From: Eledone cirrhosa
Lineage: Eukaryota
DNA length: 64,000 bases
Reading direction: 5' to 3'
NCBI GenBank assembly: GCA_964016885.1
Contig: OZ024745.1
Span: 46,190,001 to 46,254,000, forward strand
Shown here: positions 9,198 to 36,920 of the stretch, in pieces
How the letters are laid out: every line of letters begins with the position of its first letter
How positions within the stretch are numbered: position 1 is the stretch's first letter
Notes under the pieces: generated by a model
Seen by the model: only the letters and a program-made list of their open reading frames with translations
Told to the model about the DNA's origin: nothing
Databases searched by the model: none
Translations under genes and position numbers: made by a program

Positions 9198-9237
<40 letters not shown>

Positions 9238-9293
9238 CACACACATGCATATATATATACATATATATACATACATATATATATACACACACA

Positions 9294-9361
<68 letters not shown>
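9080..9361. repeat. Compound (TA)/(CA) microsatellite
   Basis: Seen directly. Confidence 0.9.
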
Positions 9362-9366
<5 letters not shown>

Positions 9367-9800: not shown

Positions 9801-9851
<51 letters not shown>

Positions 9852-10010: not shown

Positions 10011-10035
10011 AATAGAATATATATATATATATATG

Positions 10036-10066
<31 letters not shown>

Positions 10067-10085
10067 GTGTATATATATATATGTG

Positions 10086-11830
10086 TGTAGAAAAGATGAA
10101 TATAAAATGAAAGTGCTTTTATAAAGGAATTTATTAGGTATTGACATATGTTTCTGTAACAGACGGAATACCTATGTATCGCTGCTTGCGTAATCATATA
10201 ATGTTAGCAAGTATTCAATAGCAAATGTATAATCAGTTGTCACTTCTTCAGAGATATTGGATAAATTGGAAAAAATCAGAAAAATTAAAGTATTTATATT
10301 AGTTGTAAGAAAGGAAGAAGAGAAGGGATAGTATATGACAGATGGCAATTCAATTTGCTGGTAAACAAGTATATAGAAGGTTTTTAATGAGAATACAATG
10401 AGTATATGGCTTATTTTATCTAAATAAGAATATTTGGGAGTGTTTATTTTAATCTATATTTGACCAACTGAACAATGGACAGGGCTGGTCGTTTGGTGTA
10501 GTAGTATTAATACAGATATAAAGTGTCAAGTAAGGAAGAGAGAGATTTTCACTGCTACTGTATAACAACAATGCTAGTAGCCTGCTGGTATATGCATTAG
10601 GGAATTGAATTAAGAAATCTCATTTTATCTATAGTAGTTTATATCTATAGTAGTTTATATTAAATGGTAAAGAATAGAAGAGTTGATAGAATTAAGACTA
10701 ATAGAGAATGTTAATATGTATTTTGACAATCAAACGGAGATGGAGACAGGCGTTCAATCCTGGTAGCGTTTGTAAAATGAAAATGTAGATTTCAAGCGAT
10801 GGTTACAGTATAACGATCGCTCTATTCTGTTATTTAATAAAATATTTTTGGATTTCATAATACAAAATATTTCCATATTACACAATTTCCAAAATTCCTG
10901 TCCGTGGTTATATGGAGGGGCAGCGGTTATTATATCCCATTTTAGGTTAAATTGTTGGTTATTTTCGCGCAGCTGCCAAGCCTTGTCTGTGAGTGTTGTT
11001 ACATAACGCTGGTTTTCAAGTTTTATCGAGTAACGATGTCTATAAAGGCGAGATTTGAAGGAGGTAGCTGTAGACCCCACATAATACCACTTCTGGCTAC
11101 CCGATTCGATAGTACATTTGTATATGATGTATATGTTGTCAAAATACATATTAACATTTTCTATTAGTCTTAATTCTATCAACTCTTCTATTCTTTACCA
11201 TTTAATATAAACTGCTATAGATAAAATGAGATTTCTTAATTAGTTGTTATACAGTAGCAGTGAAAATCTCTCTCTTCCTTACTTGACATTTTATATCTGT
11301 ATTAATACTACTACACCAAACGACCAGCCCTGTCCATTGTTCAATTGGTCAAATATAGATTAAAATAGGTACTCCCAAATATTCTTATTTAGATAAAATA
11401 AGCCATATACTCATTGTATTCTCATTAAAAACCTTCTATATACTTGTTTACCAGCAAATTGAATTGCCATCTGTCATATACTATCCCTTCTCTTCTTCCT
11501 TTCTTACAACTAATATAAATATTTAATTTTTCTGATTTTTTCCAATTTATCCAATATCTCTGAAGAAGTGACAACTGATTATACATTTGCTATCGAATAC
11601 TTGCTAACATTATATGATTGCGCAAGCAGCGATACATAGATATTCCGTCTGTTACAGAAACATATGTCAATACCTAATAAATTCCTTTATAAAAGCACTT
11701 TCATTTTATATTCATCTTTTCTACATTTTCTCCGGAATATAATTTATACTCGTTGAGCAAACCTACACGTACGCTGTTCATCTCTAACGTGACGATATAT
11801 TATCACTACATTATTGATAACTTGAAATGT
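10086..11830 (-). mobile_element. Penelope-like element derivative: GIY-YIG endonuclease plus about 600-bp inverted repeat
   Basis: IIYKCTI...YYVGST..FKSRLYRH...KLCNME...YCNHR is a PLE-type GIY-YIG. 10086-10729 is the reverse complement of 11136-11725. Confidence 0.8.
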
Positions 11831-11876
11831 TATATGTGTATATATATATATATATATATGTACATATATGTATATA

Positions 11877-11929
<53 letters not shown>

Positions 11930-11931
<2 letters not shown>

Positions 11932-12285
11932 TTTCTGAATTTGTTTAGCAAGATTCTTTATCTGAAATCGTGTGTTGAAACCGATATTGTTATACTTTGG
12001 GAGGGTCATGTTGCCAATAAGAAATACACGCACCAGTTGCTTTCACTTCAATTTAATTTAATATATATTTATAAATTTACAAATTTATAAATTTCTGGTT
12101 GGTTGGTTGGTTCCACAACCAGATAGTTGTTTATATAAACAACTATCTGGTTGTGGAACCAACCAACCAACCAGAAATTTATAAATTTGTAAATTTATAA
12201 ATATATATTAAATTAAATTGAAGTGAAAGCAACTGGTGCGTGTATTTCTTATTGGCAACATGACCCTCCCAAAGTATAACAATAT
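11930..12285. mobile_element. Same family as 28780-29258; about 300-bp perfect palindrome
   Basis: 11984-12285 is self-complementary around gtttatataaac and shares ttatactttgggagggtcatg with about 28835. Confidence 0.75.
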
Positions 12286-12404
12286 ATATATATATATATA
12301 TAACAAAGGGCGGAAGAACTCATAAGAGTCAATGGCCATCAAAAAATGTGTAAATATGTATATACACATGTACATATGTATGTGTATGTATATGCATGTG
12401 TATA

Positions 12405-12985
12405 TGCCTGGGGTGTCAGGGAGGGGCATGTACCTCTGTAGGGAGGGTAGCCATGCCCTTTTCAGGACAGCTCGTCCTGCATTGGGTCCCGCCTGACACT
12501 CAACTCTCACCTGTGGCCCCAAGAAGCTGTAGCATGTGACAGCAGGCACACCCCGATAAACCGCCTTGGCTGGCGGGCCGAACCAGGTTGAGGGCAGTCT
12601 GACGGGTCTGAAATCTCCTGGTGAGTTAGATAGGGGATGCCTGGCCCTGCTTGCGAAGACTGGACCTGGCGGAGTGAGTGGAGGAGGACAACATCATCCC
12701 AACGGTCACGAAGGTGGCAACAGCAAGGGGTGTGGAGCGCTAGGGCACGGCAAGGCACCACAGACGTTGTGACCATCCCGCACATGTTTCTTCTTTGGCA
12801 TGCACACCCAAAGCCCTGCGGTGATGGGCGTGAGCTGGAGGTAACAGGTGGAGGTAACCTCTGGGAGTTGCCAGTCTGACTCTGGTCTCTTCCCCTGCCT
12901 CCACTGTCCCTGGACTTGCAAGTCAAGGATCGGCCTCCACAGCCACCTTTGTGCCCACGGCAGACGGGAACAACAATAAAGAAGA
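12405..12985 (+). mobile_element. GC-rich segment resembling an RTE/BovB-type 5'UTR
   Basis: Abrupt GC-rich island between microsatellites. The run ggcgggccgaaccaggttgagggcagtctgacggg resembles RTE leaders from memory; there is no ORF support. Confidence 0.4.
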
Positions 12986-13053
12986 TGTCATCATCATTTA
13001 CGATTTACAACCAAGATATATATATGTATATATATATATATATGTGTATATGC

Positions 13054-13084
<31 letters not shown>

Positions 13085-13112
13085 TACACATATATATATA
13101 TATACACACACA

Positions 13113-16021
13113 CATCATCATCATCATCATCATACATCCGCTTTTCCATGCTTGCAAGGGTGGGACGGGTCTTATTCAGCACAGCATCTCTCCACTCGTC
13201 ACGGTCCCTCATCATCTCCACCGTGAGCTTCAATGATCTGAGGTCTGTTCTCACCACCTCCGCCCATGTTTTTCGTGGTCTACCTCTACCACGTCTTCCT
13301 TCAACTGGCAATTCCTGGCACTTCTTCACCCATCGGTCATCCACCCATGCGCATTACATGTCCATACCACCTCAGTCTCCTCTCCCGTACACTACATTCT
13401 ATCCCTCTCAGACAGTTTCTCTCTCAACACATTTATGCTGGGTCGTTCACGCACATTTACACTGCACATCCAACGGAGCATGCTTGCCTCATTTCTCTCC
13501 AGCCATCGCATATCCTCTGCAGTTGCTGCCCATGTCTCACTACCATGCAGCATCGCGCTCCTCACACAGGCATCATACAACCGCCTTTCGTACGCAGGGA
13601 GAAACCGTTCTTCGTCAACAGAGGAAGCAGCTCCCTAAATTTCTTCCAACCCGTTCTTATTCTAGATACTATGGCCTCAGAACACCCTCCTCCCATGCTA
13701 ATCTGATCTCCTAGGTACCGGAAGCTATCCACCACTTCTATAGCGCCCTCCTGCATTTGAAAAATGTGTCTATCAATGCGACTTCTACTGTCTAATTTCC
13801 CTGTACATCTACTGCATACATATTTCTCCCTACCTGTTAGTTTGCCTGCTATCCTGCTACATCTCTTGTGTACCCAGGATCTGCATTGTGTGCATTTTAT
13901 AGAATTTATGCCAGTTCCTTTTCTGCATATCGAACATGGCCATTTCCCTGACAGAATCAGGGTTTTGTCCTCTTTTCTACTCATCAACACTTTTGTCTTA
14001 GCTAGATTCACTCTCAGTCCTCTTGCTTCCAACTGCTGTTTCCATAGCCAGAATTTATTCTCTAGCTCCTCTACTGATTCTGCTATAAGAACCAGATCGT
14101 CAGCATAGAGAAGTTCCCATGGACAGCCAGTCTTAAACTCCTCTGTTATGGCTTGGAGGACTATAATGAACAAGAGCGGGCTGAGGACCGAACCCTGATG
14201 TACTCCTACTTGTATCTGGAATTCCTCACTAAACTCCATTCCTACCCTGACTTTACTGAGAGTACCTCTGTACAAAGTTTGCACTGTCCTCACAAGCCAT
14301 TCCTCAACACCTAGCTTCCTTAAGGACCACCAGATGACAGATCGGGGTACTCTATCAAAGGCCTTCTCTAGGTCAACAAAGGCTAAGTATAGTGGCTTAT
14401 TCTTCTCTAAGAACCTCTCTTGCAATTGTCTCACCAAGAAGAGGGCATCTGTTGTACTCTTCCCAGGCACAAAACCAAACTGCATCTCATCTAGTTTGAC
14501 CCTTTCTCTAATTAGTTGTGCTAAAATCCTTTCTGCCACTTTCATAACCTGATCTATCAGTTTTATACCCCTATAATTGCTCCTCTCCAAAGCATCCCCT
14601 TTACCTTTGTAGCAATTTATGAGAATACTGCTGCACCAGTCTTTGGGTATGACACCACCATATATAGCCTGATTGATGATGCGTGCAACGAGTTTAGTGC
14701 CTACGTCCCCTGATGCCTTCAGCATCTCAGCAACTATTCCCGATGGTCCGGCAGCCTTACCATTTTTCATTTTCATAATCGCCTCTTGGACCCTATATTC
14801 GTCAATCTCAATAGCTGGTCCCTCTGTCGGATCTACCAAGGGTAATTTCTCTCTCTCCCATTCGTTCTCCACATTCATCAGTCTCTCATAATGACATTTC
14901 CAGGCCTCCTTTTTCTGATCATTTGTGACACTAAGTACACCAGCATCATCCCGGACACATTTATCTCCAACAACATCCTGATTTGCATTGACACACTGCC
15001 TTGCAATGTGGAACACCGCACGCCTCTGATCTTCCCGTCGCAGAACATTGGCAAACCTCCTACTCTCTGCCTCCCTGCGTGCTAAGTACACCTGACGTCT
15101 AGCTTCTCTCTTAGTGGCTGTATATTCTTCCCTACTCCCACCCTTTTTCCAAGCCTTCCATGCTAGTCTTTTGTCTCTAATAGCCTTATCTACTGTGCTG
15201 TTCCACCACCAGGTCACTCTCTGTCTGGTTGGAGCTCTGCAGCAAGTTGTCACGTAAGAAATTCCAGTTATTATCTATGTCATGCGTCTCTAAATCGTCT
15301 TCTTTTTCGTCATATACATCTTGAAGGGCTTTCCTAAATTTGTATTTTAGTGAAAGGTCTTTTAGCTTCCAGACCTTTCTTCTCCACACCTTCCTATATG
15401 TCTCATTCCATCTCTTGCTTACTGAGATATCACTAACAACTAACCTATGCTGTGGGGTACATTCTTCCCCAGGGTATGCCTTGGTATTAGACACTATCTG
15501 CCTGTCCCGCTGCCTAACTAGTAAGAAGTCAATCTGGCTTATGTGCTCACCAGATTTGTAGGTTATTAGGTGATTGGCAGGTTTCTGGAAGTTTGTGTTG
15601 CAAATAGTCAATGTACCCGCATCACAAAATTCAAGAAGTCTCACTCCTTCATTTCTTGAACCGTAACCGTGCCCACCATGTACCCCAGTGTAACCATCCT
15701 GGAGCTGTCCAACATGACCACTGAAGTCTCCTGCTAGCATAACGATGTCTCCGTCCTCTGTCATTGCGGTTGTTTGCAAATGTTGCTCATAAAAGCAGTC
15801 TTTCTCATCTTTGCCTAGGCCTGCTTGGGGAGCATAGGCCAAGATGATTGTCAGTAGTCTCCTACCTACAACTAATCTAAGCTTAATTATTCGATTACTA
15901 ACTTGAACTACCTCTATTGTCTTATTGATCCATTTCTCAGCCAGGAAAATGCCTACTCCCCCTAGCCCATCATCCTTACCTACCCAAAATAGCTTATAGC
16001 TAAGACGCTTGCCTACGACTA
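13113..16021 (-). mobile_element. RTE-clade LINE, 5'-truncated within the APE endonuclease, frameshifted
   Basis: APE motifs (AYAPQ, LAGDF, SQIDF, QHRLV), RT motifs (QFGF, DLEKAFD, QGSVLSP, YADD), PHD finger and (GAT)n tail. Confidence 0.95.
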
Positions 16022-16387
16022 GTCACATATATATATATACATATATACGCACATATATATATATATCATCATCATCATCACCATTTAATGTCTGTTTTTC
16101 CTGCTAGTAAGAATTGGGTGGGTCTTTACTGAAGTGGGCTGCAGACCTCCCAGAAAGGCCGAGGGGTCTGCATCTCCTTTATATATATATATGACATCAT
16201 CATCATAATTGTTTAACATCTATTTTCCATGCTTGCACGGGTTGCATGCTGAGACTAGACTAATAAAATGACTAGGTCCTGCTCATACACTTTCTTTTGG
16301 CTTGGAGTCTATGGCTAGATGCCCTTCCTAACATCAATCATTTAATAGAGTATGTATATATATACACACACATAAGTATATATATAT

Positions 16388-16474
<87 letters not shown>

Positions 16475-16502
16475 TATATATATATATTTATATATATATA
16501 TT

Positions 16503-16584
<82 letters not shown>

Positions 16585-16758
16585 TATATATATATATATT
16601 AATTTTTAAAATTTTCTTATTTTACGTCTTTCATATAATTGTTCTGCATCCTCCTGCATTGAACCACCTAGGTACTATGACGTAACTTATGTATTTGCTA
16701 GCATTAGTGTACATCTGTACGCATATGTTGGTAAATATACTAATTCTCTCTATATATA

Positions 16759-19600
<2,842 letters not shown>

Positions 19601-20062
19601 AATGAATAATAACAGGTAGACATCATAAAAAGGTAATTTATTCCGTGTGCTTACAGAGCATTCTGCTCTGAGAATACAGTGGTCACAGCATTGGATATTT
19701 GAGTTCTGCAAATACTTGTAAATTTGCACATAGCATAACTAGGCTGTAGTACCACCGTGGAAACATTTGTAAGCACACGGAATAAATTACCTTTTTATGA
19801 TGTCTACCTGTTATTATTCATTCTTTATATACACTCCGGAATACAGAAGGATCAGGAACTAAGTTTCTTCAACAATGCTTCCATAACTCGTAGAGTAACC
19901 TCTCACCGTACGTCAACAATATCCAGTGTAGTAATTAACCATTACTACATCTTGGATAATCCTATACCTAATATATATATATATATTAGGTATAGGATTA
20001 TATATATATACTCTTGTCATTTCAAATAACTTATACATATATACACACACACATATAGATGT

Positions 20063-20093
<31 letters not shown>

Positions 20094-20110
20094 CACATAT
20101 GGAGGCACAT

Positions 20111-20457
20111 GGAGGCACATGGCTTAGTGGTTAGAGCATTGGCCTTGCAATCGAAAGGTTGTGAGTTCAATTCTCAGACCGGGTGATGTGTTGTTTCCTT
20201 GAGCAAGACACTTTATTTCACATTGCTCCAGTTTACTCAGCTGTAGAAATGAGATGATAGGGACTTGAGTCCCTATCATTCCACTGCAAAGTGGTCGTGG
20301 AGGTGCCACGGCAAAAAAGCACCCAGCACTCACTGTAAATGAAATTGGTGTTAGGAACGGCATCCAGCTGTAGAAATCAAGCCAGAATCAGTTCCCGTCC
20401 CACCCTTGCAAGCAGGGAAAAGTGGACGTAAAATGAAATGATGATGATGATGATGAT
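20111..20457 (+). mobile_element. SINE family 1 (followed by an inverted head fragment at 20467-20509)
   Basis: Near-identical to 2256-2600. Confidence 0.85.
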
Positions 20458-20509
20458 ATATTTTTTCGATTGCAAGGCCAATGCTCTAACCACTAAGCCA
20501 TGTGCCTCC

Positions 20510-20539
<30 letters not shown>

Positions 20540-20541
<2 letters not shown>

Positions 20542-21135
20542 ATAATATATAGTAAGAAACACAGTAAACCGTGTGTCTAAAATTACAAGGGTTGAAAAAC
20601 CACATTTGTTTGAAATATTTAACCAAGAAGCAGACAGATTGATAAAATATACAAACCGCCTCAATAACCATTATATCTCTCGGACAGATTATCCCTAATC
20701 TGCTCCCTCACAAGTTGAGCTTATTAAGTTGTGTGTGTTGGACTGTTATTTCTATTCAATACACGCTTACCACGTTTGACTAGCGGAGCACGAGGTGACA
20801 AATTCATCTTTCTGTGTGAACGTTGGCAAATAGTGTCTGTGGCATTTAATCAGAATCTCTCGCTGATGAAGCCCAGGATTATCTGTTACAAACACACTCA
20901 GGGCGAAACAGATTAGGGATAATCTGTCCGAGAGATATAATGGTTATTGAGGCGGTTTGTATATTTTATCATTCTGTCTGCTTCTTGGTTAAATATTTCA
21001 AACAAATGTGGTTTTTCAACCCTTGTAATTTTAGACACACGGTTTACTGTGTTTCTTACTATATATTATTAATCGGCTCAGTATTTATACTTGGAGCTTA
21101 ATAGTTGCAGGGTTCCAATTGAGTGTTAACTCTAA
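20540..21135 (+). mobile_element. Hammerhead-bearing fold-back element (PLE pseudo-LTR-like)
   Basis: 20540-20702 is the reverse complement of 20909-21070. Flanked by (TA)n on both sides. Confidence 0.7.
20855..20936 (+). ncRNA. Complete type I hammerhead ribozyme
   Basis: Stem I AUCUCUCG/CGAGAGAU, core CUGAUGA plus one extra A, stem II GCCC/GGGC, GAAA, stem III ACAGAUUA/UAAUCUGU with GGGA loop, GUC triplet (cleavage after 20928). Confidence 0.85.
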
Positions 21136-21136
21136 T

Positions 21137-21189
<53 letters not shown>

Positions 21190-23481
21190 TATATATATTA
21201 TATAAATATATGGATAGTATATATATGTCTGCCACTCTTGCCTCAAGTGGGAAAACTCCTGTCCAAACCCATGCAAGTGTGGAACATGGACGTTAAACGA
21301 TGATGATGATGATGATGATGCATGTGTATGTACATATATATATATATATATCATCATCACCGTTTTACGTCCGTTCTTCCACGCTAGCATGGGTTAGATA
21401 TATATATATAAAGAGAGAGAGGGGGGGAGAGGAGGGAACAATGTTTCAATTTAAAATTTTTTTTATTCTTTATTAAACATGATGTGTTTTGCAGCTGATC
21501 AGCTTGAGTTGTTAATGTAGACTCTCAACTTGGCTGTGGCATCCATCTGCCATAACAAACATTACTCACTAACCAACTATATATATATTTATAGACATAT
21601 ATATATCATCGTCATTGTTTTTACGTCCATTTTTCCATGCTTATATTCGTATGTGGTTGACGGCTGAGAGAGAAGAGTACTCAATACCAAAATAGCAATT
21701 TTAATATTCATTTTATTAAGGCTAAATAGTGAGTCTTGTATGTATGTTATTCATACATACATCATCATCATCATCATTTAACGTCCATTTTCCACACTAG
21801 CATATACATACATACATACATAAATATATACATTCATATATATATGCACACATATATATATGCACACATACATAAGTATATACATTCATACATATATATA
21901 CGTTCATATGCATGTACACATATACGTTCATATGCATGTACACATAAATGCATTCATAAAGAGTAACCATGCACACACTCATATACACCTATTACATAAG
22001 TGCATTGACACATTCATATGCTTATATACACACTAATTCACTCATGCATTCACAAATTCCTGGGACTCTCTTGCTTTGCAGCATAGTTACGGCTCTTTAC
22101 ACTCAGGCTTCAAATGCCACTGGGGTTAACTTTGCCTTTCATCCTTATGGTGTTAAAAGAATAAAGTAAATGTACTGGAGTCGATTTAGTCGACTTTCCC
22201 CTTCCCTTCAAATTGATAGCCTTGTGCCAAAAGTAAAAACAATTATTATCATAAATAATTTCTCAACACAATTCATGCTACCTAAGGTTTCAAAGTTTAC
22301 TCTAGCATAAGTCATAGAGACATTATGTATGCTAGTGTTGTTTATCTTTCAAGCAAGAATAAGCAGCACTATATATAGTGTCTCTATGACTTATGCTAGA
22401 ATAGGCTATGAAAGCTTAGGTAGCAAGCAACTGTGTTAAAAAATTATTTATAATAATATATTTTGAGTTTTTTTTCTCTTACCTATTCTATGGAAACCCT
22501 TGACACTATCTGTATATATATATGCACACATACACTCATGCACACATACATAAAGAGCAATCTAAAACCAAATGTATAGCAATGAAAAACAAGCATTAGC
22601 AAAATTAAACGAAGTAAATTTAAATAGCACAGAAACTAATTATATTCACTAAAATCTATTTTCTTAACTGTAAACACAGGAAATATCTTAATCAAACAAA
22701 ATTAAAATTTTAATTGAATCAGTTCTATTCAATGGCACTACTTCAGATTATAATATTATGCTATTCTAAAATGTTTCTAAGACATAACATGCAAAGTAAC
22801 ACAAATTTCAGATAACAGTCAATATAATAAATAAAAGCAACCAAAACAGTGAGTTTGAGAAAACACCATCATGCCAAATATGTATAGTTAGTAATGAAAC
22901 TCAGTAGATGTTAGCATTCATTAATTTCGACTCAGGTTACTAATAATCAAAAATAGCAAAGGAAACTTTAAAAAGCTTGTTTATGAAAATGAGTATTGAC
23001 CCTAAACAATCTGCTATGAAGCAAATCTTTAATATAAGCCATAATCTTAAACTCAAATAAATTCATGTCAACATTAGAAAGGATGTATAACACTAGCTCC
23101 AAGAATACATGCAAATATCCAAATTTGTAAAAACATGTCACCTATGCTTATAAATATTAAAAAAAAAAAAGAATGTAAACACATGTTGAAATAATAACTA
23201 GTATCTATATATATAAAATATAGTAAAATGTTTCATTGGATCAGTTGGAATAATTTCATTAAGCTATGGACAAGATTGCCTTAATAAGCAAATACATTTA
23301 TTTTATCCAATCTCTATTTACTATTTTAAATCCATTGGATGCTACATGTTGCCAATAAAAACAAAATTTATAGAAGCATAAAATCACCATTTACGTCTAG
23401 ATCTGTATTGTCCATCAATAGAACAAAGTCTACTCTAAAACAAATGAAGCTACAAAAGGGAAGAATGAGATTATGAAATAC

Positions 23482-24057
23482 CTTAAGATGTCTCGCTGTG
23501 ATGTCCTTGCATAAAGAGATCTCTTTCTGAGTTAAATCCACATTAGATAGTGGATAAATGATTTCTCCAATGATTTCGTCTCTTGAGAACTTGTCAAAGC
23601 TGAGAACCACAAAGTGAAGGATAATGTCTTCAAGTTGGTTATAGTCAACTCCATAAAATGTGAAAGTTTCATCGTAGATTGGATTCAATGTCTTTCTGAG
23701 GATTCTGGTTTTGCGCTTGTATTTCTTGTCAGGCAAGAGCTGGAGCTTGATGTAGGGGTCACATACAGCAATTCCTGGTACTGATGGGTTCAGGTCTGAT
23801 GCTTTTAAAATTGTTACATGAAGAGCATTTTTCTTTGAATCATGCTCAATCGAAAAGTCTATGTTTCCAAGGTAAGGAACTTTTGCAGCAGATGAACTCT
23901 GAAACTTCTCAAAAGCCCCATCATATTTCTCGTTTTCCAATTCAAAGTCTTCTTTGCAACCGAAGGCCTCAAAAAGATACTTGCTTTTCTCAGACATCCC
24001 TTCTAAATCTTTTTCAGACGAAGTTCGTCCCCAATTATCTCCATTTGATGGACTTAC
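23482..24057 (-). CDS. Syt4: Duplicated C2A-like exon (C2A') with short linker and no TM; 5' boundary uncertain (24057, 24093, or ATG at 23997)
   Basis: Open frame of 192 codons from just after an in-frame TAG to AAG|gtattt, the same donor position and sequence as the canonical C2A exon. Hand alignment gives 97/131 identical residues with no indels. Confidence 0.8.
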
Positions 24058-24060
24058 CTA
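24052..24060 (-). promoter_or_regulatory. Candidate recursive splice site (TAG|GTAAGT)
   Basis: An acceptor AG directly abuts a perfect donor GTAAGT at the start of the C2A' open frame. The pyrimidine tract (gtccttttaaaacc) is only moderate. Confidence 0.45.
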
Positions 24061-24544
24061 GGTTTTAAAAGGACACTATTGTGATCTCTGATGCTTAAAA
24101 CAAATAAGACAATACAATAAAACAAATATTTAACCCTTAATCTATGTCTAAAGTTATATTTTTTAAAATTTAGTTTATAGAAATGAAGAAACTACCAAAA
24201 TTAACAGATTAAAGATATTTAAATATAGAAAACAATTATATAATAATATAGTGAAACAATATTTGTGATTGTGTGATTGAATATGTATAGTGAGTGTTCT
24301 TAGCTATCAGCTTCTATTTAAAAATAGGTATATAAGTGTAAACACAGTATTCTTAAGTTATCAAATTGGTGCAATTGTATAGTGCCAGAATAAGGATTAA
24401 CAGAATACTGGTTGTTAAGAATGAAAGTTAACAAGGAAATGTTTAATGATCATCTCTATCTCTTGAAGAGAAAATTGACAATAGGCAAGACTTCAAATCC
24501 CACCAAGAAGTGGCTGACCATAATCTGACATCTTACATATATGT

Positions 24545-25022
24545 ATTTGTATATATTATGGTGACTACTTCTCTCTGTGTGTTTATTTATGTGTGTATGT
24601 ATGTGTGTATGTATATGTATATGTGTGAATGTATGTCTACATGTATGTGTGGTAATATATGTATTTGTATATGTTGTTGTGACTACTTCTCTCTATGTGT
24701 GTATGTGTATGTATATGTGTATGTGCATATGTGTATGTGCAAGTGTATATATGTGTGCATACAAATGAGTTTATGTATGTCTACATGTATGTATGATAAT
24801 ATATATATTTATATTTGTTGTGGTGACTATCCTCTATGTGTGTATGTGTATGTGCATATGTGTCTGTGTATGGGTGTATATAAGTGTGTGTATGTGTGTG
24901 TATGTATATATATCTACATGTATGTATGGTAATATGAATATTTGTATATGTTATGGTGATTACTTCTGTGTGTGGGGGGGGGGGGTGCATTTGTGTTCAT
25001 GTATGTGTGTGTGCATGTGTGT
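24545..25022. repeat. Degenerate TG-rich tandem repeat, ~130-bp unit
   Basis: gtga(c/t)ta(c/t) anchor recurs at about 24561, 24679, 24823 and 24956. Confidence 0.6.
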
Positions 25023-25319
25023 AGCAATGCATTATGGGTGTAGGCATGGCCAGTTAGTTAAGAAGCTTGCTTTGCATTCATGAGTGGAATCCTGTCGGAT
25101 GGATTTTACATGTAATTCAAGCATCCATCTTTGTCATTAAATGTTTCAAACTGATTCTGCTTCGGAATTATGTTAATTGTACACGTGTCTGTGGAATGCA
25201 CAGTGATGTGTACCATATTTCAATGAGTAGGCAGTTCAGTAGATCAAATAACTGGAATACTCCTCATCAAACTCAATAAGTATCCATCTATATTTATTAT
25301 ATAAGGGGTAAAAACTCAT

Positions 25320-25622
25320 TTCAGTCATGAATAACCATGGGTTTTGTACCTAGAGTTCCCCATCTGAGGCACAAGCCCAGGCAAGGTGTTTTTGTGGAAG
25401 ACCAGCAGTCACCCATGCATGCCTGTCTCCCCTCTCCACGCCATTAATGTTGTTGAAGGGAAAGTCAAAGCTTGGCACCAGTGACATCCCAGCTCATTTC
25501 TCCAGCTGAGTGCAATAAAGTGTCTTGTTCAAGAGGCACAACGCACTACCCAGTCTGAGAATTGAACACGCAACCTTATGATTGTGGACCCAATGCTTTA
25601 ACTACTATGCTACAAGCCTTCG
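25320..25622 (-). mobile_element. Older SINE family 3 (second partial copy at 51833-52055)
   Basis: Head similar to family 1. Body ggaagaccagcagt...gggaaag shared with 51833-52055. Confidence 0.6.
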
Positions 25623-25734
25623 CATCATTTATATATTAATATAAAGTTCATATCACAGTTCAATTTTAAGGTTTAATTTCTAATATATGATTTAAAGTAC
25701 AAGAGTAGCAGCATTTTTTTCCCATCTGGATCAT

Positions 25735-27110
25735 CTTCTATACATATCACATGTTCATGCCAATATAGTTTCCTCTCTTGCACACTATATTTGGTTTCTC
25801 TAGTACCCAGTTTTTGTTAAGCTCATTTGTACTTTGTAGTTCATGCCAACTAACTTTACACATCCAGCATAGCATGCTCATTTCAGCCTTCACACATCCT
25901 TTGCATTCAAGACCCATACATCACACAAGAGAAAATCACTTTGTTACCAGCAGAGGTTATATCTCCCTAAAAGTTTTCAGCTTGTTCTTATTCTAGCTTC
26001 TTTACTTTTGGAGCACAATCTCCCACTGTGAATTATGTGACTTAGATAACAGAAGCTATCAACTACTGAGCATTTGAAAGAATGTACTTCGCAAGTGCTC
26101 TTATGGCTAACTTCTCCTGTGCATCTCTTACATACAAAGTTTTCCTTCTCTGTCCACTTACCTTTGATCCTACTACAACACTTGTGTACCCATAGTTTAC
26201 AATAGAATTCTTACTAACTACTTTTCTGCAATATCAAGCATAGTCACATCATGGATAACATTAGTGCCCTGTCCTGTGTTTCTTGCAAAATAAAACTTTT
26301 GTCTTTGCTAGGTTTACTTTAAGACCTCCAAATTCTAAGGTTTGCCTCCATGTTTGGAATTTTTTCTCTAATTTTTAATGGATGTAACCAGGAGAATTAG
26401 ATCATTGCCATACAGGATTTCCCATGGATACCCAGTTTTAAACTCTTCTGTTATGGTCATGATAATCATTATAAAGAGGTGGTGACCTAGAATTAATCCC
26501 TAATAGATACCTATTTGCACTTTAAATTCCTTGCTGAGATGATTGCCAACTTTTACCTTTCTGGCAGCATTTCTGAGTATAGCTTGCATGTTTTTCATGT
26601 CATTCATCCCCACCTAGCTTTTCTTAGTGATTACTTGACTACAAAGAAGAATACCCAGTCAAACGCCTTCTCCAGATATAATGGTTAAATAGACTTGCTA
26701 ATAACTTATCCTATAGTTGTCTCACAAAGAAAAGTTTACCAGTGGTACCCTGTTCTGGAACAAATCTGAACTGCATCTCACCTAAGCTAATTATTTTCTT
26801 AATTAGTTACACTATAACTCTTTCTGTTACTTTCATTGGGCCATCAATTTGTTACTTTTGTAGTTGCTTCTTTCTAGATCATTTCCTTTGCTTTTATAGC
26901 AGCTTATGATGATGTAACACTTGTCAGTAGGTATGACATCATCCTGTACTACATTTTTTACAATGTCATTGATTAGTGTGTGTCCTATTTCATCGGATAT
27001 CTTTTAGCTTCTCAGCTTCTTTGACTCTCCATGCCATTAAATCCTTAATATCCCTTTTCATCATATAACCACCAGCATCAATAGCTGGTCCCTGGTTTCC
27101 TGAAGTTAAT
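25735..27110 (-). mobile_element. Degenerate RTE LINE
   Basis: Stop-riddled similarity to the young copies, e.g. cccatggatacccagttttaaactcttctgttatgg and aactgcatctca. Confidence 0.75.
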
Positions 27111-28566
27111 GTTGCAGATAGTCAGATTATTTGCATCATAAAATTCCTTGTATCATATTCATAGCTTCCTGACATACCATAGTAGTGATCATGATGCTGC
27201 CCAGCATCTTCCTTAAAATCCCCAGTCAGTGTTACTGACATAACCCCTGTCAGAGACGAGGCTGTAGAAGCACAACAAATATAGTAAATTCTGTGAATTC
27301 CTAAATGAGAAAAATGTAACTCTTCATAAAGTACTTGTAACATACAGATGTAAGAGAGAATTTGATTGGTTGAGTTGATAGAATATTGGTTGATTTAATT
27401 AGTGGTTCACAGTTCATAATTCGTCACTGGTTATGTATCCATGGACAAGACGCCTGACTGTGATCTCATTCCACAACATATGCTTCACAGTACTATTTTT
27501 TATTGTTACAAGCAATTATAGTGTTTGAAAATTGATGATAATTTCATTAAGCTGAAATACTGGTTTAGGTGTTCTTACGGAGGAAAATTGCCATTTATTT
27601 TTAGAAAAAGGCTGCATAAGCATTGGATCAAGAAACTATTAACTGTAAATGCTACAATGATACAGGATACAATCACAATACACGTTGTGTTTAGACAGTG
27701 TATACCACAAGACATTAGATAAGGAAGGAAATACATATCAGCATCATCATTATCATCACTAATGTCGATTTTCACTGTTTGCATGGGTCAGACATAATAT
27801 ATATATATCCTTGAAACCTCAGATATACATATATAATTTTTTTTCAATGTGGTCTGCCCTTGGTGGTAGGGTCCGTACCGTAAATAGAACTCAATGTAAT
27901 CTGATGGCAAGTAATCCAGTGAAATCCATAGAAAGGTTCCGTGTTCCGCTGAGTTAATTCCTTAGATACAGAAGAAGATGGTCTGATTGAACCTATATAT
28001 GAAGTCTGATAGGATACAGTTATATAACTGCTATAGACCAGTCAATATATGTCAATATGATCAACCCTCCAAAACAATCGTAAAACAATGATATGAATAG
28101 GTAAATAACTCGACTTTGTTGTCATTATTTTCATTGTTAAATTAATACCTAATATATATATATATATGAAACAGAAAGTTATTTGTTGTTGATGTACTGA
28201 AAATATCAATAAATTATAGCTAAAAATACCTCTTAGAGAATTATATAGAAAAGTAGAGCAACTTTTACAAAGTTAGGCCATGGGAGATAACTCGCAGAGC
28301 AGTCTGAAATACACCCGCTCTACCACTGTTCTATAATTGTAGAGCGGCTGTGTGTGTGATGTTGACAGACGTGAGAATGATTACTCAGTACTGAAGTAGA
28401 GTTTAAATATGATCAACTGATGAATCTTCTTACTCTGGTATTTCACTTATGTACTCACACATCATCATGTCTTGTCTGATGATCCTGTGAGTCTGTGAGT
28501 ATAGAGGTGGAACTCCAGAGTAATAAGTCTCATCACCTAGCCATAATAAAGAATATTATATATATA

Positions 28567-28756
28567 GGGTGGTGGATTGGCAGTATCGGTAGAGGGTCGT
28601 ATGCCATGCTTTCCAGCATAGTTACGTCCCTTTACGATCTGAGTTCAAATCCCGCCGAGGTTGACTTTGCCTTTCATCCTTACGGGGTCGATAAAATAAA
28701 GTACCAGTAATGCACTGGGTAATTGCTGGCCTTGTGCCTAAAGAAGAAACAATTAT
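28567..28756 (+). mobile_element. SINE family 2
   Basis: Matches the family, in reverse orientation. Confidence 0.8.
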
Positions 28757-28779
28757 ATATATATATATATACTTCATTT

Positions 28780-29256
28780 TTTAATTTGTTTTGCAAGAAT
28801 TCTTATCTGAAACCGTGTGTTGAAACAGATATTGTTATACTTTGGGAGGGTCATGGCTGCCAATAAAAACACATGCACCTGTTGGTTTTCACTTCAATTT
28901 ATTATAAATTTCTGGTTGGTTGGTTGGTTAGTTCGATAACCGGAAAGTTGTTTATATATTGTCAAAGCTCTTTCATCACACATTCTGTAACCTCCTCAGT
29001 GAATGGGTTTTTATTTTGTGTCCCTCCTTTCTTCTGTCCTATACCATTTTGTTTTTGTGTGGAGGACAGAACAAAGGAGAGACACAAAATAAAAACCCAA
29101 TCACTGAGGAGGTCACAGAATGTGTGATGAAAGAGCTTTGACAATATATAAACAACCATCCGGTTATCGAACCAACCAGAAATTTATAACAAATCTAATG
29201 AAAACTAACAGATGCATGTGTTTTTATTAGCAACATGACCCTCCCAAAGTATAACA

Positions 29257-29258
<2 letters not shown>
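28780..29258. mobile_element. Palindromic element with a minimal hammerhead on each strand (29101-29141 +, 28962-29002 -)
   Basis: UCA-CUGAGGA-G-GUCACA..UGUGAU-GAAA-GAGCUU-UGA occurs in both arms. The arms are slightly diverged. Confidence 0.65.
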
Positions 29259-29311
<53 letters not shown>

Positions 29312-29314
<3 letters not shown>

Positions 29315-30537
29315 TCATCATCATCATCATCAACGTTTAACGTCCGTGTTCCACGCTTGCATGGGTTTGGACGGGGGTAGTCCCACTTGAGGCAAGAGTG
29401 ATTGTCTTGCTCGCATAGGACTGTCTGGCAGGTTTTCTACGGTTGGATGCCCTTCCTAACACCAACCACATTTACAGTGTGGGTCTGGGAGGTTTTTACC
29501 GTGTTGCCTACACGACCACATTACAGCGTGGACTGTGTGTTTTTTTGTCGTGACACCTACACGATCTCATTTGTTTCGGCCTCGATGGCGCGGCACCAAC
29601 ATAACTTTACATAGAACGGGGTGGTGTGGATGGGGTGGGGGTGGTGGTGGTGGGACGGGGTGTATTTTGTTAGAGATGCCTACTGGCTGGAGTAGGTTTT
29701 ACTATATATTTAGGTAAGGCGGGTCTTCTCTGTTACTGAGTACCGCCAAAGGTCTCGGTCCAGTGACATTGTCTTGGAGAGGTGTAAGTGTGTGATGTCG
29801 GAGTTTATCAGCTCGTCCCAGGTTTTTCTAGGTCTGCCTGTTCCGTGACTACCGTCTATCTTTATTGCCCTGCACTTTGTTATACAGCTATCGACTTTCA
29901 TGCGCATCACGTGTCCATACCAACGTAGCCTTCTCTCGAGTAAACAACATCTGATCCCTCTTATCTCTAATTTTTTCCTTAGTTCGTTTATGCTTTGCCG
30001 TTCACGTATATTACTGTTACACATCCAGTGGAGCATGCAAGCTTCGTTCCTCTCTAGTCTGCGTATATCCTCTGCACGCAATGCCCAGGTCTCACTGCCA
30101 TGCAGCATTGCTGTTCGTATGCAGACATCGTACAACCTGCCTTTCATTTTTAGGGAGAACCATTTAGCAGCTAATAGTGGTATAAGCTCTCTGAACTTTT
30201 TCCAACCAGTTCTGACTCTAGCTACAGTACTTTCAGAACACCCTCCCCCACTGCTGATTTTATCGCCCAGGTAACGGAAGCTGTCCACTATTTCTATAGA
30301 ACCCTCTGCGCAATTGAAAGAGCTAGTATTTTGTGGGCACTTGCTGCTACTTATTGCACCAGAACACCGGCCACATGTAAAATCTATGTTCTTAGTTAGC
30401 TTACCTGTGATCCCACTACATCTTTTATGCACCCATACTTTGCATTTAGGACATAAAATGGAGTTTCTACCTACGCCTTTCCTACACACCGAGCACGACC
30501 ATTTCCCAGAAGGGACCGCCGCCTTGTTTTCTTTCCT

Positions 30538-30540
<3 letters not shown>
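29312..30540 (-). mobile_element. RTE-clade LINE 3' fragment (second subfamily, long 3'UTR)
   Basis: PHD finger, FRYLG, HGSETW, RLRWYGH and GRPRKTW, then 3'UTR and (GAT)n tail. Confidence 0.9.
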
Positions 30541-30592
<52 letters not shown>

Positions 30593-32967
30593 TATATATA
30601 TATATATAAGTATGTATTATATACATCATCATCATTTAACATCCACTTTCACTGCTTGCAAGGGTTGGTTAGGGTGTCAACAGACCAAGTTATTACTCAA
30701 GCAAAGCTACTCACTCCATGGATGGGCCAGGAGACTGCATCTCACTTATATATGTTTCCAAACTCTACTGAGTATTTAAACAGATGGCTGCCCATAACTG
30801 ACTTACTTATGATCCAAAGTGCATTTTAAAGTGTGGGATCATATAAACACCATGAATTGAATTATTCCAAATGATTGAAACAAGCAATAATAAACGACCT
30901 CCTTTGATAAAGAAATAATGTATCAAATCAAATATGCTCATTTCTTATATATAAACACCCACTCAGCTAATTATATAAAGTTAGTGAAGAGGAGTCACCA
31001 TGACATGAACTCTTAATTCCTGGCAGAGTCATAGGGGCATTGTCATAACATACAACATGTCTTGGACTTTAAACTTAGCAGAACCTATGCCTCTCCAAGT
31101 CAGAACACAGTTGGTTTATTCCAGATAAAGAGAGAGTAGAAGAGAAAGTGAGGAAGAGAGATAGAAGAAGAATTGGAATTTGATTTCAGAACACAGAAAG
31201 AGATAGCATGAATAATACAAAGCATATTATCTAATGTTCTATGACTCTGAAAATTTGCTAACTTGAAGAAGAATCACAAACTGCTGCTGTTTCTATCTTG
31301 TTGCTGATTCTATTATCAGGTAGTATTAGTCAGCTTTGCTTGAGCATTCTGTGACATGAAAAAAAAACAATGCTACAAACGATGGTACAAATTTGTTCAA
31401 ATATAACGATTTCTTATATAATGAGAGCAATAAAGTTGGAAAAAATGTAATAGTAAAGCACATTGAGAAAAGTGAAGTAATTAGTTCTGTGACTCTCAAT
31501 GGGTTTAGACAATATTCTATTTCAACCATACGACTCTGCTGAAAAATAAAAATAGAGAGGTGCCTAGTCAAATGAAATTGATTATTTATAAATTTGTCCA
31601 GATTCTTTTGGTTCCCCCTACCCATAACATACTTCCTCCCCAACTCTCATAGGGTAGAGAAAGCTCTTCAGTTAAGTTAATAACCAACAACTTCCCCAGT
31701 ACTGGTGCCATGATAAAATGCACCCAACACACTCTGTAAAGTAGTTGGTGTTAGGAAGGGCTTCCAGCTGTAGAAATGAAACCAAAGGGTTGTGAGGACC
31801 CTCCTGTTATGACATGGCAATCTCCTCAGTGCTGGTGCCACAATAAAATGTACCCAAAACACCCTCTCAGGCATTTAATGATAGGAGGGTGCATCCAGCC
31901 AATCTGGGGTGTGACTCTGATTAAGTACTGACTTGGTTTATGATGACTCATCCAACCCTTGCTAGCAGAGAAAATATGATGATAATGATGTGCCTAAATT
32001 AAATATCATTATTGATTCCATTCCAAACATGAAATTCAGTAACAAATAATTGAAAAGATAATTAAGATAAATATAATATATGTGTAGCGAAATTATCATG
32101 GGTAATATTAACTGCAGGTTAAAATAGCTATCACAAAACATACAGGTATTTAAGCCCAGCTAAATTACAATTTTGCCCTCTTGCCTTTCCTCTCCTTCTC
32201 ACTCTGCTGTTCTCTGAAACAGTTGGCAACCAACACCCAACTGTAGCAGTCACCATTCATTAAGGCTCTGATGCAACTGGGCCAGTAAATCTACTGTGCA
32301 CAAGACAATATCTTGTCTCAACCAACATTTATGCATCCCACATTCACTCAGAAGCCCAACATATCACAACAAATTACGTTTATCTGTGATCACTACTTCT
32401 AGCCACCTGTTAACAAAATATTCTGTTGCATCAAATCTTTTACATATTCTGGCTGTATTATATTCTGCACATGGTGTTATTTTATATCAGGGCACACATA
32501 AAAATATCAGAATTAGCAGTTTGGTTTTCCTCATTGTTTTGCCTCAATTCATCATGGTTCTGATTGTTATTCAACCACACCAATCAACACATTCAACAAC
32601 ATGTACAACAACATGCACAACATTTAACATAACATTCACCAACTTCGACAAATATAACAGTTCAACCACAACAGCTAACCACATAACCATTAAAATGAGA
32701 TCTACAAACATTTCTGCTAAATATGTTAATAATATAGATGTCAATATATAAATGCATATATTTACCTACTTACTCATATATATATATATATAAATAATAG
32801 AGGTATATATATGGTTTTTATTGCTGGACTCCCTTCCTATCACCACCTATCTTGCAGAGTGTACTGGGTGTATGTTTCATATCAATGAATGAATTACTCA
32901 GAAGAAATATGTGAAGGTAAAGAGAATTAAGCAAACCACCTAAGTTCACAAAATATCATTGTTTTCA

Positions 32968-33189
32968 CCCATTAGCATTTACATTACTTTATACATATAC
33001 TATTGTATTTTCACGGTAAACACTTTATTTCACATAATTATCTCACATAATATCGAATCTATGACATTTTGATATTATTTATTTTGAGGACAATACCTTA
33101 ATACAGGTATGAGCAGCCAGTTACAACCAGTTTAAACAAAAAAAGGTGAGAGCATTCTGGCTAGATACGGCGATTTAAATGGTAAAGGG
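32968..33189. mobile_element. piggyBac-like MITE
   Basis: Same body as 3611-3818, reversed. Ends AAAGGG|TTAA. Confidence 0.65.
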
Positions 33190-35004
33190 TTAAATATTTA
33201 ATGTGTAGAATTAAATAAGCAGAGGATATAATAATGCTAGAAGAGACAAAATAGGAACACAAAAGATTAGTATTAACATTGATAAGATGAATTCACCCAA
33301 TAACACCTTGACCATTTTGTCTGTGGAGCATGGCTGAGGTACTGTTCAGGCTGGGGTGTAGTGTCTGACCTTCCCCCTCTCCCTTTTTTTGTTGTTTGAT
33401 CCTTTTTTTCTTTTTCTCCTTTTCATTTTCTTTTTTTTAATTTATTTTCTGTTCCCTTTAATAGTGTTTTATTTTTATTAAATATTGGTCAATTCTTTTT
33501 CATAGAATGTCAATGGCTTTTCATGACATTCAGAGATTTTGTATATTGACTAATAATTATTAATAAACAAAATACTGAACAAAAAAAGTTTACAATACTT
33601 ATGTCGATGTTTCATATAAATATTCCTGCATATTTTCCATACAACTGTTATGATTCTATGCAATTCAATCATAAATCTTTCTATATAATGGAATTTTATT
33701 GATTTTCTTGTCGAAGTTTGAAAATTGAGAAGAAGATAAAAAGGCCAGCACTAAACTGTTGAATATTATGGAAGAAAGAAGGAAAAAAGCCAACAAATTC
33801 TTAATATATATGAAATTGACATCATAACTAAAGGTGAGTGGTACTACACATCATAACTTTTCCTCTAACTGCTTAGTTGTCGCACCTCATTAACAGAAAT
33901 ACTATTCTGTTTACTATGTTGATGGAAGTATCACTTTTGTTCTGAAAATACATTTTAAAATGTTACTTAATCCTTTCCTTTAAGAAGAATAAAACAATAT
34001 GTTTGAATGTTAATGCTAAAAGCTTTTGGTTTGTTAATCAATAAAAATCAATAAAAAAAATCAATAAACTAGAAATCACAGTAAGGTTGCAGAGAATTAG
34101 TTCATCTCTCAGACTGACAAATCAATAAATAACATTTCTTTATAGAAAATGAATAAATCTCAATATCCTCTTGCACAAAATTTGTTGTTGCTATTGTTCA
34201 TGTTTCTGTTGTTGCCAAGCAAATATTCAAAATAAATTTATTTCTGAAATTAATGCAGCCCTTTTCGTAACTTATCCAAATGTTCCTTCAAATGTCTAGA
34301 ATGAATTTTCATTCTTTGAGATTGTTATAGTACATTATTAGCTTTCTGATTAGGACCACGGGGGAAATGTTAGTCTACAGATATGATTGGAGCAGCAAAA
34401 GAGCATTTTATTCATAAACAGTGACACACTCATACATAATAGATGGCAGATATGGTAATGAGACCAATAATAGATATTAATCATTTTTAGCAATGATTAA
34501 TAAAGTTATTTTGAGTGGTCTTCACTAAGACGTATTATGCTCCAGGCATATTAAGACTATGATGAATGTAAATAGTGATTATATTATTGTTTACAAGCAT
34601 TGTCCAGAGTAAATATAAAGCAGAAAGATAGACAAAACAAGAGACTATGGGGAGAAATATTGTGTTTGTTTTTTATATTGGATCTAGATGACTTCTACGT
34701 TATGGGATATATTGTTCACATGACAATAACATTTACTTAATGTCATGCAGAGAAGCAGCAAGATAGCTTAAAAGGGATTTTGGCTTACTGGTTTAAAAAG
34801 AAAGGGTATATATTTGCTCACTAACACTTTGTATTTAGCTCTAAAACAAACCAATGAACTTAGCTGCAAATAATTACAACACAATGATACAGATCTTTGC
34901 TCCAAATTCTTTTGTTACTTTGTAATGTTGAGCTTGAATCTACTCATGATTATACAGGAGCACTAAGGAACTAATATTGTTATTTTCATCAACACATAAT
35001 TATA

Positions 35005-35211
35005 CCCTATCAGCATTTCATTACTCTATATATACTATTGTATTTTCACGGAAAACACTTTATTTCACATAATATCAAATCTATGAGATTTTGATATTAT
35101 TTATTTTGAGAATAATACCTTAACATATGTATGAGCAGCCGGTTATGGCCAGTTTGAACAGAAAGAGGTGAGAGAATTCTGGCCAGATACAGCCGGTTAA
35201 ATGCTAAAGGG
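35005..35211. mobile_element. piggyBac-like MITE
   Basis: Ends TAAATGCTAAAGGG|TTAA. Confidence 0.65.
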
Positions 35212-35387
35212 TTAAATATGTTAACACTAACTTAATTGATTTTTTTCAAGTATATAATGCTAATGTGTAATTTATTCTCTAAACATCACTAGGTTTCTGC
35301 ATTTACAAGGATATATTTTTGTATATTTAGTTAGAAAATCTCCCATCATTACATCAGTGGGTACTTAGAAGACTATCCTAACACACA

Positions 35388-35520
35388 TAATTGTTTCTAC
35401 TTTTGGCACAAGGCCAGCAATTATCCCAGTGTATTACTGGTACTTTATTTTATCGACCCCGTAAGGATGAAAGGCAAAGTTAACCTCGGCGGGATTTGAA
35501 CTCAGATCATAAAGGGCTGT
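35388..35520 (-). mobile_element. SINE family 2, 5'-truncated
   Basis: B box, core and tail present. Confidence 0.75.
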
Positions 35521-35837
35521 AATGAGATATAATTATGTTCAAAGTTGTCTATCATTCTTGCAAAAAGAATTAGAATATTATAAGTGTCATTTCGAGCCAT
35601 ACCATGTAAATGAAATTAGGTAGATGAAAACTAATGGCTGGATTGTGCTTATATTTCAATGGGTCAGCTTTGTCACAAACTATGTCACACTGAATCTCAT
35701 TGAGAATTTTGTTAAGGATACACATGTTTGTGGAATACTCAGCCACTTGCATGTTAATTTCATGAACAAGCTGTTCTGTTGATTGAACAGCTAGAATACT
35801 CATTGTTCAAACAGACAGAGATCCATTCTGCATTTTC

Positions 35838-35838
35838 T

Positions 35839-35890
<52 letters not shown>
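35838..35890. repeat. (CAT)n retroelement tail
   Basis: Followed by ttaacgtctgtttttccacactagcatggg, the shared LINE/SINE 3' end. Confidence 0.85.

Positions 35891-36825: not shown

Positions 36826-36920
<95 letters not shown>

What the first reader, a model, noticed from the sequence alone, without database searches (positions are those of the whole stretch)
24052..24060. C2A' starts at TAG|GTAAGT, so splicing to it regenerates a perfect donor (recursive-splice switch)
Seen: the open frame begins exactly at GTAAGT after an AG, and the upstream exon ends in AAG. The spliced junction AAG|GTAAGT is a full consensus 5' splice site, stronger than the exon's own distal donor GTATTT. The site divides a 55,515-nt intron about 33.2 kb from its 5' end. 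Known: RS-exons in long neuronal introns work by competition between a regenerated and a distal donor. Inference: here the RS-exon encodes a whole folded domain, so donor choice would toggle 2-C2 and 3-C2 synaptotagmin. The acceptor's pyrimidine tract is only moderate.
Basis: partly seen in the sequence, partly recalled or inferred. Interest (0 to 1): 0.82.

Follow-up and report, generated by a model that had tools for sequence, protein, structure and literature searches.

The report
Optional third C2 domain, octopus synaptotagmin
An octopus gene for the nerve-vesicle protein synaptotagmin-4 carries a duplicated, optional exon, and assembled transcripts indicate versions with two and with three C2 domains; the exon begins with a perfect splice-donor sequence, but whether cells use it to cut the exon back out is untested, and ordinary exon skipping is likely the main route.

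Summary
On the minus strand, TAG|GTAAGT opens a 576-nt in-frame exon (24057-23482), 33,160 nt into a 55,515-nt intron of octopod Syt4/11. The exon is a selected duplicate of linker plus C2A (dN 0.17, dS 1.89). Gene models of three other octopods and a cuttlefish have it too, always joined as HLK|VS.

Contigs of 4 of 4 laid runs splice the upstream exon to 24057. Three have the length that a de Bruijn simulation predicts when inclusion and skipping coexist (633 nt, or 627 with a 6-nt deletion). So the acceptor is used and the 2-C2/3-C2 toggle is well supported.

The recursive route is untested, because its product is identical to plain skipping. For it: the donor at the junction matches U1 at 8 of 8 core positions against 6 of 8 distally, and this genome has a class of ratchet-point-like sites. 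Against it: the acceptor is weak, Ser-Pro is inherited from the parent exon, and no decapod DNA was available. Odds: conventional skipping 0.45, recursive switch 0.33. The scan noted ratchet-like sites before, in this genome's titin and in other animals.

The parts
57218..58050 (-). Exon 2 of Syt4/11 (833 nt): transmembrane helix, linker and C2A; ends AAG
   Evidence: joined to 24057 in run contigs (with the 3 differences predicted)
57212..57217 (-). Donor GTATTT of exon 2 (6 of 8 U1 core matches), needed by both isoforms
1703..57217 (-). 55,515-nt intron (as removed in the 2-C2 form), split by C2A' into 33,160 nt and 21,779 nt
24094..24134 (-). T-rich tract ending in AAG, 36 nt upstream of the used acceptor; it looks stronger than the used one (15/20 pyrimidines, 40 AG-free nt)
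   Evidence: no contig covers it in 4 of 4 runs
24058..24093 (-). Candidate 36-nt (or 30-nt) stop-carrying microexon that would use GTAAGT as an ordinary donor; hypothetical
   Evidence: translation HQRSQ*CPFKT*; no RNA support
24052..24060 (-). TAG|GTAAGT: used acceptor fused to a consensus donor (putative recursive 5' splice site)
23482..24057 (-). Cassette exon C2A' (576 nt, phase 0/0, 192 aa): duplicated linker plus C2 domain
23476..23481 (-). Distal donor GTATTT of C2A', same hexamer as the parental donor
   Evidence: joined to 1702 in 3 of 4 runs
1579..1702 (-). First C2B exon (124 nt), common 3' partner of both isoforms

Best explanation
C2A' is a duplicated cassette exon of octopod synaptotagmin-4/11 whose acceptor is used and which is inferred to be included or skipped to give 3-C2 and 2-C2 proteins, with skipping likely due mostly to ordinary failure to recognise its weak acceptor rather than to re-splicing at GTAAGT. 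Shown: the exon, its purifying selection and both of its junctions in contigs. Strongly inferred: the skip form in the same runs. Inferred: a single origin in a coleoid ancestor by partial duplication of exon 2, starting at the T-S-P of the linker and carrying the parental donor along. On this reading GTAAGT arises largely from an AG|GT exon start plus the inherited Ser codon; it would be held quiet after splicing (for example by the exon junction complex) and contribute little skipping. The long form is predicted to place a second, probably calcium-blind C2 domain and a 60-residue linker between C2A and C2B.
For: Inclusion junction in 4 of 4 runs; in X24 the 30-nt upstream piece has the 3 differences that mark the C2A end. 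Contig lengths of 633, 633 and 627 nt (6-nt deletion) with 30 nt before and 27 nt after match the simulated inclusion-plus-skip graph; inclusion alone gives 1533, and adding a read-through path gives 606. 432-aa 2-C2 proteins exist in Logan assemblies. Weak acceptor: 11/20 pyrimidines, 16 AG-free nt; only 2 of 73 ratchet-like sites in the genome have 16 or fewer, median 60. Parental ACA AGC CCA versus duplicate GTA AGT CCA; T-S-P is present in 15 of 15 non-cephalopod mollusc Syt4 examined. 1.7-4.9% of human exons rebuild a donor, and EJC-sensitive ones tend to have strong acceptors (PMC6224609).
Against: The junction donor is a perfect core match and beats the distal donor, 8 against 6 of 8. 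Three of the six bases (G, T and the last T) differ from the parent, all towards consensus. V-S opens the exon in 5 of 5 coleoid sequences although octopod and cuttlefish linkers share only 22 of 60 residues. This genome has an excess of acceptor-donor fusions. In Drosophila, expressed exons of this layout were confirmed recursive by donor mutation (PMC8605326). The comparison with the 73 sites is biased because they were selected for ten pyrimidines.
Confidence: 0.45

Rival explanations
1. Recursive switch: most transcripts first splice exon 2 to 24057, then choose between the junction donor AAG|GTAAGT (giving 2-C2) and the distal GTATTT (giving 3-C2).
For: Acceptor used; 8/8 against 6/8 U1 matches; both products present; long flanking introns of 33.2 and 21.8 kb; V-S in 5 of 5; GTA at the junction in 4 of 4 runs. 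A genome-wide class of ratchet-like sites exists: 75 against 14 after a pyrimidine tract, 41 against 27 after a purine tract, p=0.0009. In X5 a contig reads through the distal donor while the junction contig runs unbroken into the exon, compatible with upstream-first splicing (one run, two separate contigs).
Against: The acceptor is weak and unlike the ratchet-like class. The exon is 576 nt, whereas second donors in that class lie 35-83 nt downstream. Keeping two residues at 37% linker identity has about a 13% chance. No read-through path appears in 3 of 4 runs, though contigs drop rare paths. Synonymous positions could not be checked outside octopods.
Confidence: 0.33
2. GTAAGT is an ordinary donor in the unspliced RNA, closing a 30- or 36-nt stop-carrying microexon behind the stronger upstream tract, or acting as a decoy that competes with the overlapping acceptor.
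For: TAG|GTAAGT is already an 8/8 match before splicing; the upstream tract is better than the used one; both candidate exons keep frame and carry stops. The simulation shows such an exon would not change the 633-nt contig.
Against: No contig was laid on 24075-24200 in 4 of 4 runs, which is weak evidence. The upstream AG is AAG. No conservation data.
Confidence: 0.12
3. C2A' mainly serves another transcript: a soluble form starting at its internal ATG (MSEK) from an intronic promoter, or a form ending in the intron after C2A' and lacking C2B.
For: Database proteins P0093 (315 aa) and P0094 (202 aa) start at MSEK, and P0094 reads through the donor. X5 has a read-through contig.
Against: All 4 runs join exon 2 to 24057, with no sign of another 5' path. 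The Met is Ile in Argonauta and absent in Sepia.
Confidence: 0.07
4. C2A' is a dead duplicate or an annotation artefact.
For: None beyond its weak acceptor.
Against: Intact frame, dN/dS about 0.09 against C2A, presence in gene models of 4 other species, and spliced junctions in contigs.
Confidence: 0.02

Closest known systems
Expressed (annotated) RS-exons: Drosophila Ubx m1, msi, ps, heph, mub, sm (PMC8605326); human KPNA1, AP1G2, MRPS5 (PMC6224609)
   Same: An alternative exon whose first bases rebuild a donor that is stronger than its distal donor, with both included and skipped products.
   Different: 576 nt and a whole domain, against 51 nt for Ubx m1/m2; weak acceptor; arose by exon duplication; use of the donor not shown; the searches run found no report in molluscs.
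Drosophila intronic ratchet points with cryptic RS-exons (kuz, Bx, Ubx-RP; PMC8605326)
   Same: AG|GTAAGT inside a very long intron of a neural gene.
   Different: Those have strong acceptors and exons of about 50 nt that are usually out of frame and excluded; this exon is long, coding, selected and included.
Synaptotagmin-4/11 (rat and fly Syt4, PMC2945570; PDB 1ugk)
   Same: Transmembrane helix, linker, C2A with the Asp-to-Ser ligand change (LSFD), and C2B.
   Different: The long isoform has a third C2 domain. Among the 90 proteins listed, only the two coleoid clusters were about 620 aa; the rest were 357-530 aa.
Alternative splicing of tandemly duplicated exons (general knowledge, recalled)
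   Same: A duplicated exon keeps the parental donor and phase and diverges under selection.
   Different: The copy is partial and additive rather than mutually exclusive, and it needed a new acceptor in the middle of the parental exon sequence.

Membership tests
Expressed RS-exon | Acceptor directly followed by a consensus donor | tested here: met
   TAG|GTAAGT, 8 of 8 U1 core matches
Expressed RS-exon | Upstream exon is spliced to the site | tested here: met
   Junction in contigs of 4 of 4 runs
Expressed RS-exon | Junction donor at least as strong as the distal donor | tested here: met
   8 against 6 of 8 by U1 match count; no trained model
Expressed RS-exon | Included and skipped products both exist | tested here: met
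Expressed RS-exon | Junction donor is actually used (RS lariat, saw-tooth, donor mutation) | not testable with these tools
   Only contigs were available; the recursive product equals the skip product
Expressed RS-exon | Upstream intron removed first | tested here: inconclusive
   Read-through contig in 1 of 4 runs, not linked to the junction
Expressed RS-exon | Nucleotide conservation of the donor beyond coding needs | tested here: inconclusive
   V-S in 5 of 5 proteins; GTA in 4 of 4 run contigs of close relatives; the metagenome scan gave no coleoid C2A' DNA
Intronic ratchet point with cryptic RS-exon | Strong acceptor with a long pyrimidine, AG-free tract | tested here: not met
   11/20 pyrimidines, 16 AG-free nt, against a median of 60 in 73 genome sites
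Intronic ratchet point with cryptic RS-exon | Short (about 50 nt), non-coding, normally excluded exon | tested here: not met
   576 nt, coding and included; no internal donor with 7 or more of 8 matches
Synaptotagmin-4/11 | Transmembrane helix, C2A with Asp-to-Ser ligand change, C2B | tested here: met
   criterion from PMC2945570
Synaptotagmin-4/11 | Exactly two tandem C2 domains | tested here: not met
   Holds for the 432-aa form; the 621-627-aa form has three

The most novel reading that the evidence does not exclude
Coleoid cephalopods evolved a three-C2 synaptotagmin-4 by partial exon duplication and control it by recursive splicing: an old, 576-nt, whole-domain RS-exon whose first two codons double as a splice donor, in a genome that also carries dozens of fly-type ratchet points.
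Probability: 0.33. Interest if true: 0.72.

Novelty: new variant of a known kind. Interest (0 to 1): 0.5.

Why it matters
Classical synaptotagmins have two C2 domains (PMC2945570). A coleoid Syt4 that switches between two and three is present in database gene models, but the literature searches run here found no description of it. In rat/fly chimeras C2A can shut off the adjacent C2B (PMC2945570), so changing which domain sits next to C2B could retune vesicle release in cephalopod neurons. If the recursive route holds, it would show that a whole domain can be toggled by donor competition, and it would extend recursive splicing to molluscs. The site gives a clean test, because the donor can be changed synonymously.

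Tried and rejected
The run search listed no holder on record as RNA; the four runs laid are contigs of unrecorded or guessed type. They join exons across introns, and the own-genome searches showed no intronless copy, so I treat them as spliced RNA. Contig depth (about 1,600 at the junction and about 6,500-6,900 on short C2A-like pieces in X5) was not used as an inclusion rate.

Back-splicing of C2A' was considered because X1 and X13 show 0 differences in the junction piece. It is rejected because those contigs run through the exon end into C2B and have the inclusion-plus-skip length; the zero itself stays unexplained.

A search with the C2A' linker found nothing among 105-336-aa proteins, and one with the Sepia linker found no further 3-C2 cluster.

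The trees had three outgroup rows cut wrongly; its C2-only tree grouped Sepia C2A' with decapod C2A (80/74), so a single origin is not proven. One row (Mizuhopecten) was still overlong.

The other six YAG|GTRAG sites in the intron have weak tracts and were not pursued. No structure prediction was run, and no supplementary files were read.

Full report
Observation. The minus strand at 24060-24052 reads TAG|GTAAGT. An open frame starts at 24057 and runs 192 codons to AAG|GTATTT at 23482. The upstream exon (58050-57218) also ends AAG|GTATTT, and the next exon starts at 1702. The intron is 55,515 nt and the site lies 33,160 nt in. AG+GTAAGT is expected about 1.3 times on this strand of the intron and occurs twice, so only its position at an exon start is notable. 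By U1 match count, the genomic site and the spliced junction both score 8 of 8 core positions, and both GTATTT donors score 6 of 8. Splicing therefore does not create the donor, and GTATTT is a working donor in this gene.

The gene. It is an octopod synaptotagmin-4/11: the closest hit is 93% identical to an Octopus bimaculoides protein. Exon 1 lies about 57 kb upstream of exon 2 and the last exon just outside the window. Both exon 2 and the 576-nt exon encode a Pfam C2 domain, and the latter matches solved Syt IV C2A (1ugk, E 4e-37). The exon is a partial duplicate of exon 2. It begins at the T-S-P of the linker (parent ACA AGC CCA, copy GTA AGT CCA), and no similarity was found upstream of that point. 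Over the 132 C2 codons, differences fall 27/15/64 on the three codon positions, with dN 0.17 and dS 1.89. Only these two close copies were found in the genome.

Relatives. Gene models of O. bimaculoides, O. sinensis, Argonauta hians and Sepia pharaonis have three C2 domains, each with the junction HLK|VSP. Three Logan proteins of 432 aa, close to Sepia, go straight from C2A to C2B. In a tree of linker plus C2, all coleoid copies form one side (98/99) and the five C2A' rows form one side with moderate support (77/95). A C2-only tree instead put Sepia C2A' near decapod C2A (80/74). A single origin before the octopus-cuttlefish split (a few hundred million years ago, recalled) is likely but not proven. 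T-S-P is present in 15 of 15 non-cephalopod mollusc Syt4 examined. V-S opens C2A' in 5 of 5 sequences while octopod and Sepia linkers share 22 of 60 residues, which is weak evidence of constraint. A Syt4 linker serine is a kinase site in rodents (PMC5714612, passages), so protein-level constraint on linker motifs is plausible; that site lies 20 residues before C2A and is not shown to be this one. Octopod C2A' keeps the Syt4 serine in LSFD and has lost the first-loop acidic residue (PSVP against PRDP), so it is predicted not to bind calcium well.

RNA-like evidence. I laid 4 of the 24 listed runs on 23400-24200; all are contigs, of unrecorded or guessed type. All four join a 30-nt upstream piece to the exon start. 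In X24, which is identical to the window across the exon, that piece has 3 differences from the C2A' end, as many as separate the C2A end from it. In X24, X1 and X13 the contig continues 27 nt into the C2B exon and stops; lengths are 633, 633 and 627 (6-nt deletion). A k=31 simulation gives 633 = 30+576+27 when inclusion and skip paths coexist, and also when the 36-nt microexon is added. It gives 1533 for inclusion alone, 606 with a read-through path, 605 with an unspliced upstream intron, and 727 with only retention after C2A. The acceptor is therefore used and both isoforms are inferred in three runs. X1 and X13 report 0 differences in the junction piece, which I could not explain; the geometry argues against back-splicing. 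X5 has a contig that reads through the distal donor, which fits a splicing intermediate or an alternative end, but it is not linked to the junction.

Recursive or not. The recursive product is identical to the skip product, so contigs cannot decide. The used acceptor is weak (11/20 pyrimidines, 16 AG-free nt), and a better tract lies 36 nt upstream, which could define a stop-carrying microexon ending at GTAAGT. To set a prior I counted patterns genome-wide. After ten pyrimidines plus N-CAG there are 75 GTAAGT and 14 GTTAGT; after ten purines, 41 and 27 (odds ratio 3.5, p=0.0009). The reversed-pattern controls gave 37, 13, 72 and 31. Of the 75, 73 are distinct. Their AG-free zone has a median of 60 nt against 25 in the 14 controls (p=0.002). 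Seventeen of 73 have a strong donor 35-83 nt downstream, against 9 of 219 in three other windows (p=6e-6), but against 4 of 33 in the two control sets (all 14 of one, 19 distinct among the first 20 of 41 of the other) the excess is not significant (p=0.29). The genome thus seems to carry fly-type ratchet points. C2A' does not look like one: 2 of 73 have as short an AG-free zone, with the caveat that they were selected for long tracts.

Known systems. In Drosophila, ratchet points have cryptic exons of about 50 nt, and expressed RS-exons were validated by donor mutation (PMC8605326, introduction and one results section read). In human, 1.7-4.9% of exons rebuild a donor and are mostly kept in by the exon junction complex; sensitive ones tend to have strong acceptors and lose the upstream intron first (PMC6224609, passages and one section). 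Lariat mapping is the accepted test (PMC10156609, passages). By the human definition C2A' is a putative RS-exon; the defining use of the donor is untested. Searches for recursive splicing with octopus, ratchet point with mollusc, exon duplication with synaptotagmin and cephalopod, and synaptotagmin-11 with octopus returned 0 papers. Recursive splicing with cephalopod returned one paper on microexons (listing only). (10 of 428 listed) showed nothing on a 3-C2 Syt4. Subscription journals are not covered, and no supplements were read.

Verdict. Conventional skipping of a weak-acceptor cassette (0.45) is slightly favoured over a recursive switch (0.33); the two can coexist. These odds are my judgement from the evidence above, not a computed result. 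Novelty: new variant of a known kind. Interest 0.5.

Noticed in passing
G000 genome-wide; loci L028-L047, L062-L116: 73 distinct sites with ten pyrimidines + N-CAG + GTAAGT, in excess of controls, with long AG-free tracts; 17 have a second strong donor 35-83 nt downstream. This is the layout of fly ratchet points with cryptic exons. They were not mapped to genes.
   Followed up: partly
window 24058-24134 (-): A stronger pyrimidine tract and two further AGs lie 30-36 nt upstream of the used acceptor; with GTAAGT they would define a frame-keeping microexon that carries stops.
   Followed up: partly
window 23416-23481 (-), run X5 and protein P0094: A contig reads through the distal donor into the intron; by eye its loose end matches the C-terminus of P0094, suggesting an intermediate or a form without C2B.
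   Followed up: partly
window 23482-23877 (-): Octopod C2A' lost the first-loop acidic residue and changed DRFS to DKFS, while Sepia C2A' keeps an Asp there and resembles Sepia C2A more, hinting at faster octopod divergence or gene conversion.
   Followed up: partly
window 13562-19154, 29710-30648 (-) and 50119-51492 (+): Several reverse-transcriptase-like open frames (LINE-type retrotransposon remnants, recognised by eye) lie inside the intron.
   Followed up: no
window 10754-11194 (-): A 146-aa frame that resembles a GIY-YIG endonuclease fragment of Penelope-like elements (recalled motif, untested).
   Followed up: no
L026:1165-1213 (-): Exon 1 of the gene lies about 57 kb upstream of exon 2, so intron 1 is as long as the intron studied; it was not scanned for recursive sites.
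   Followed up: no
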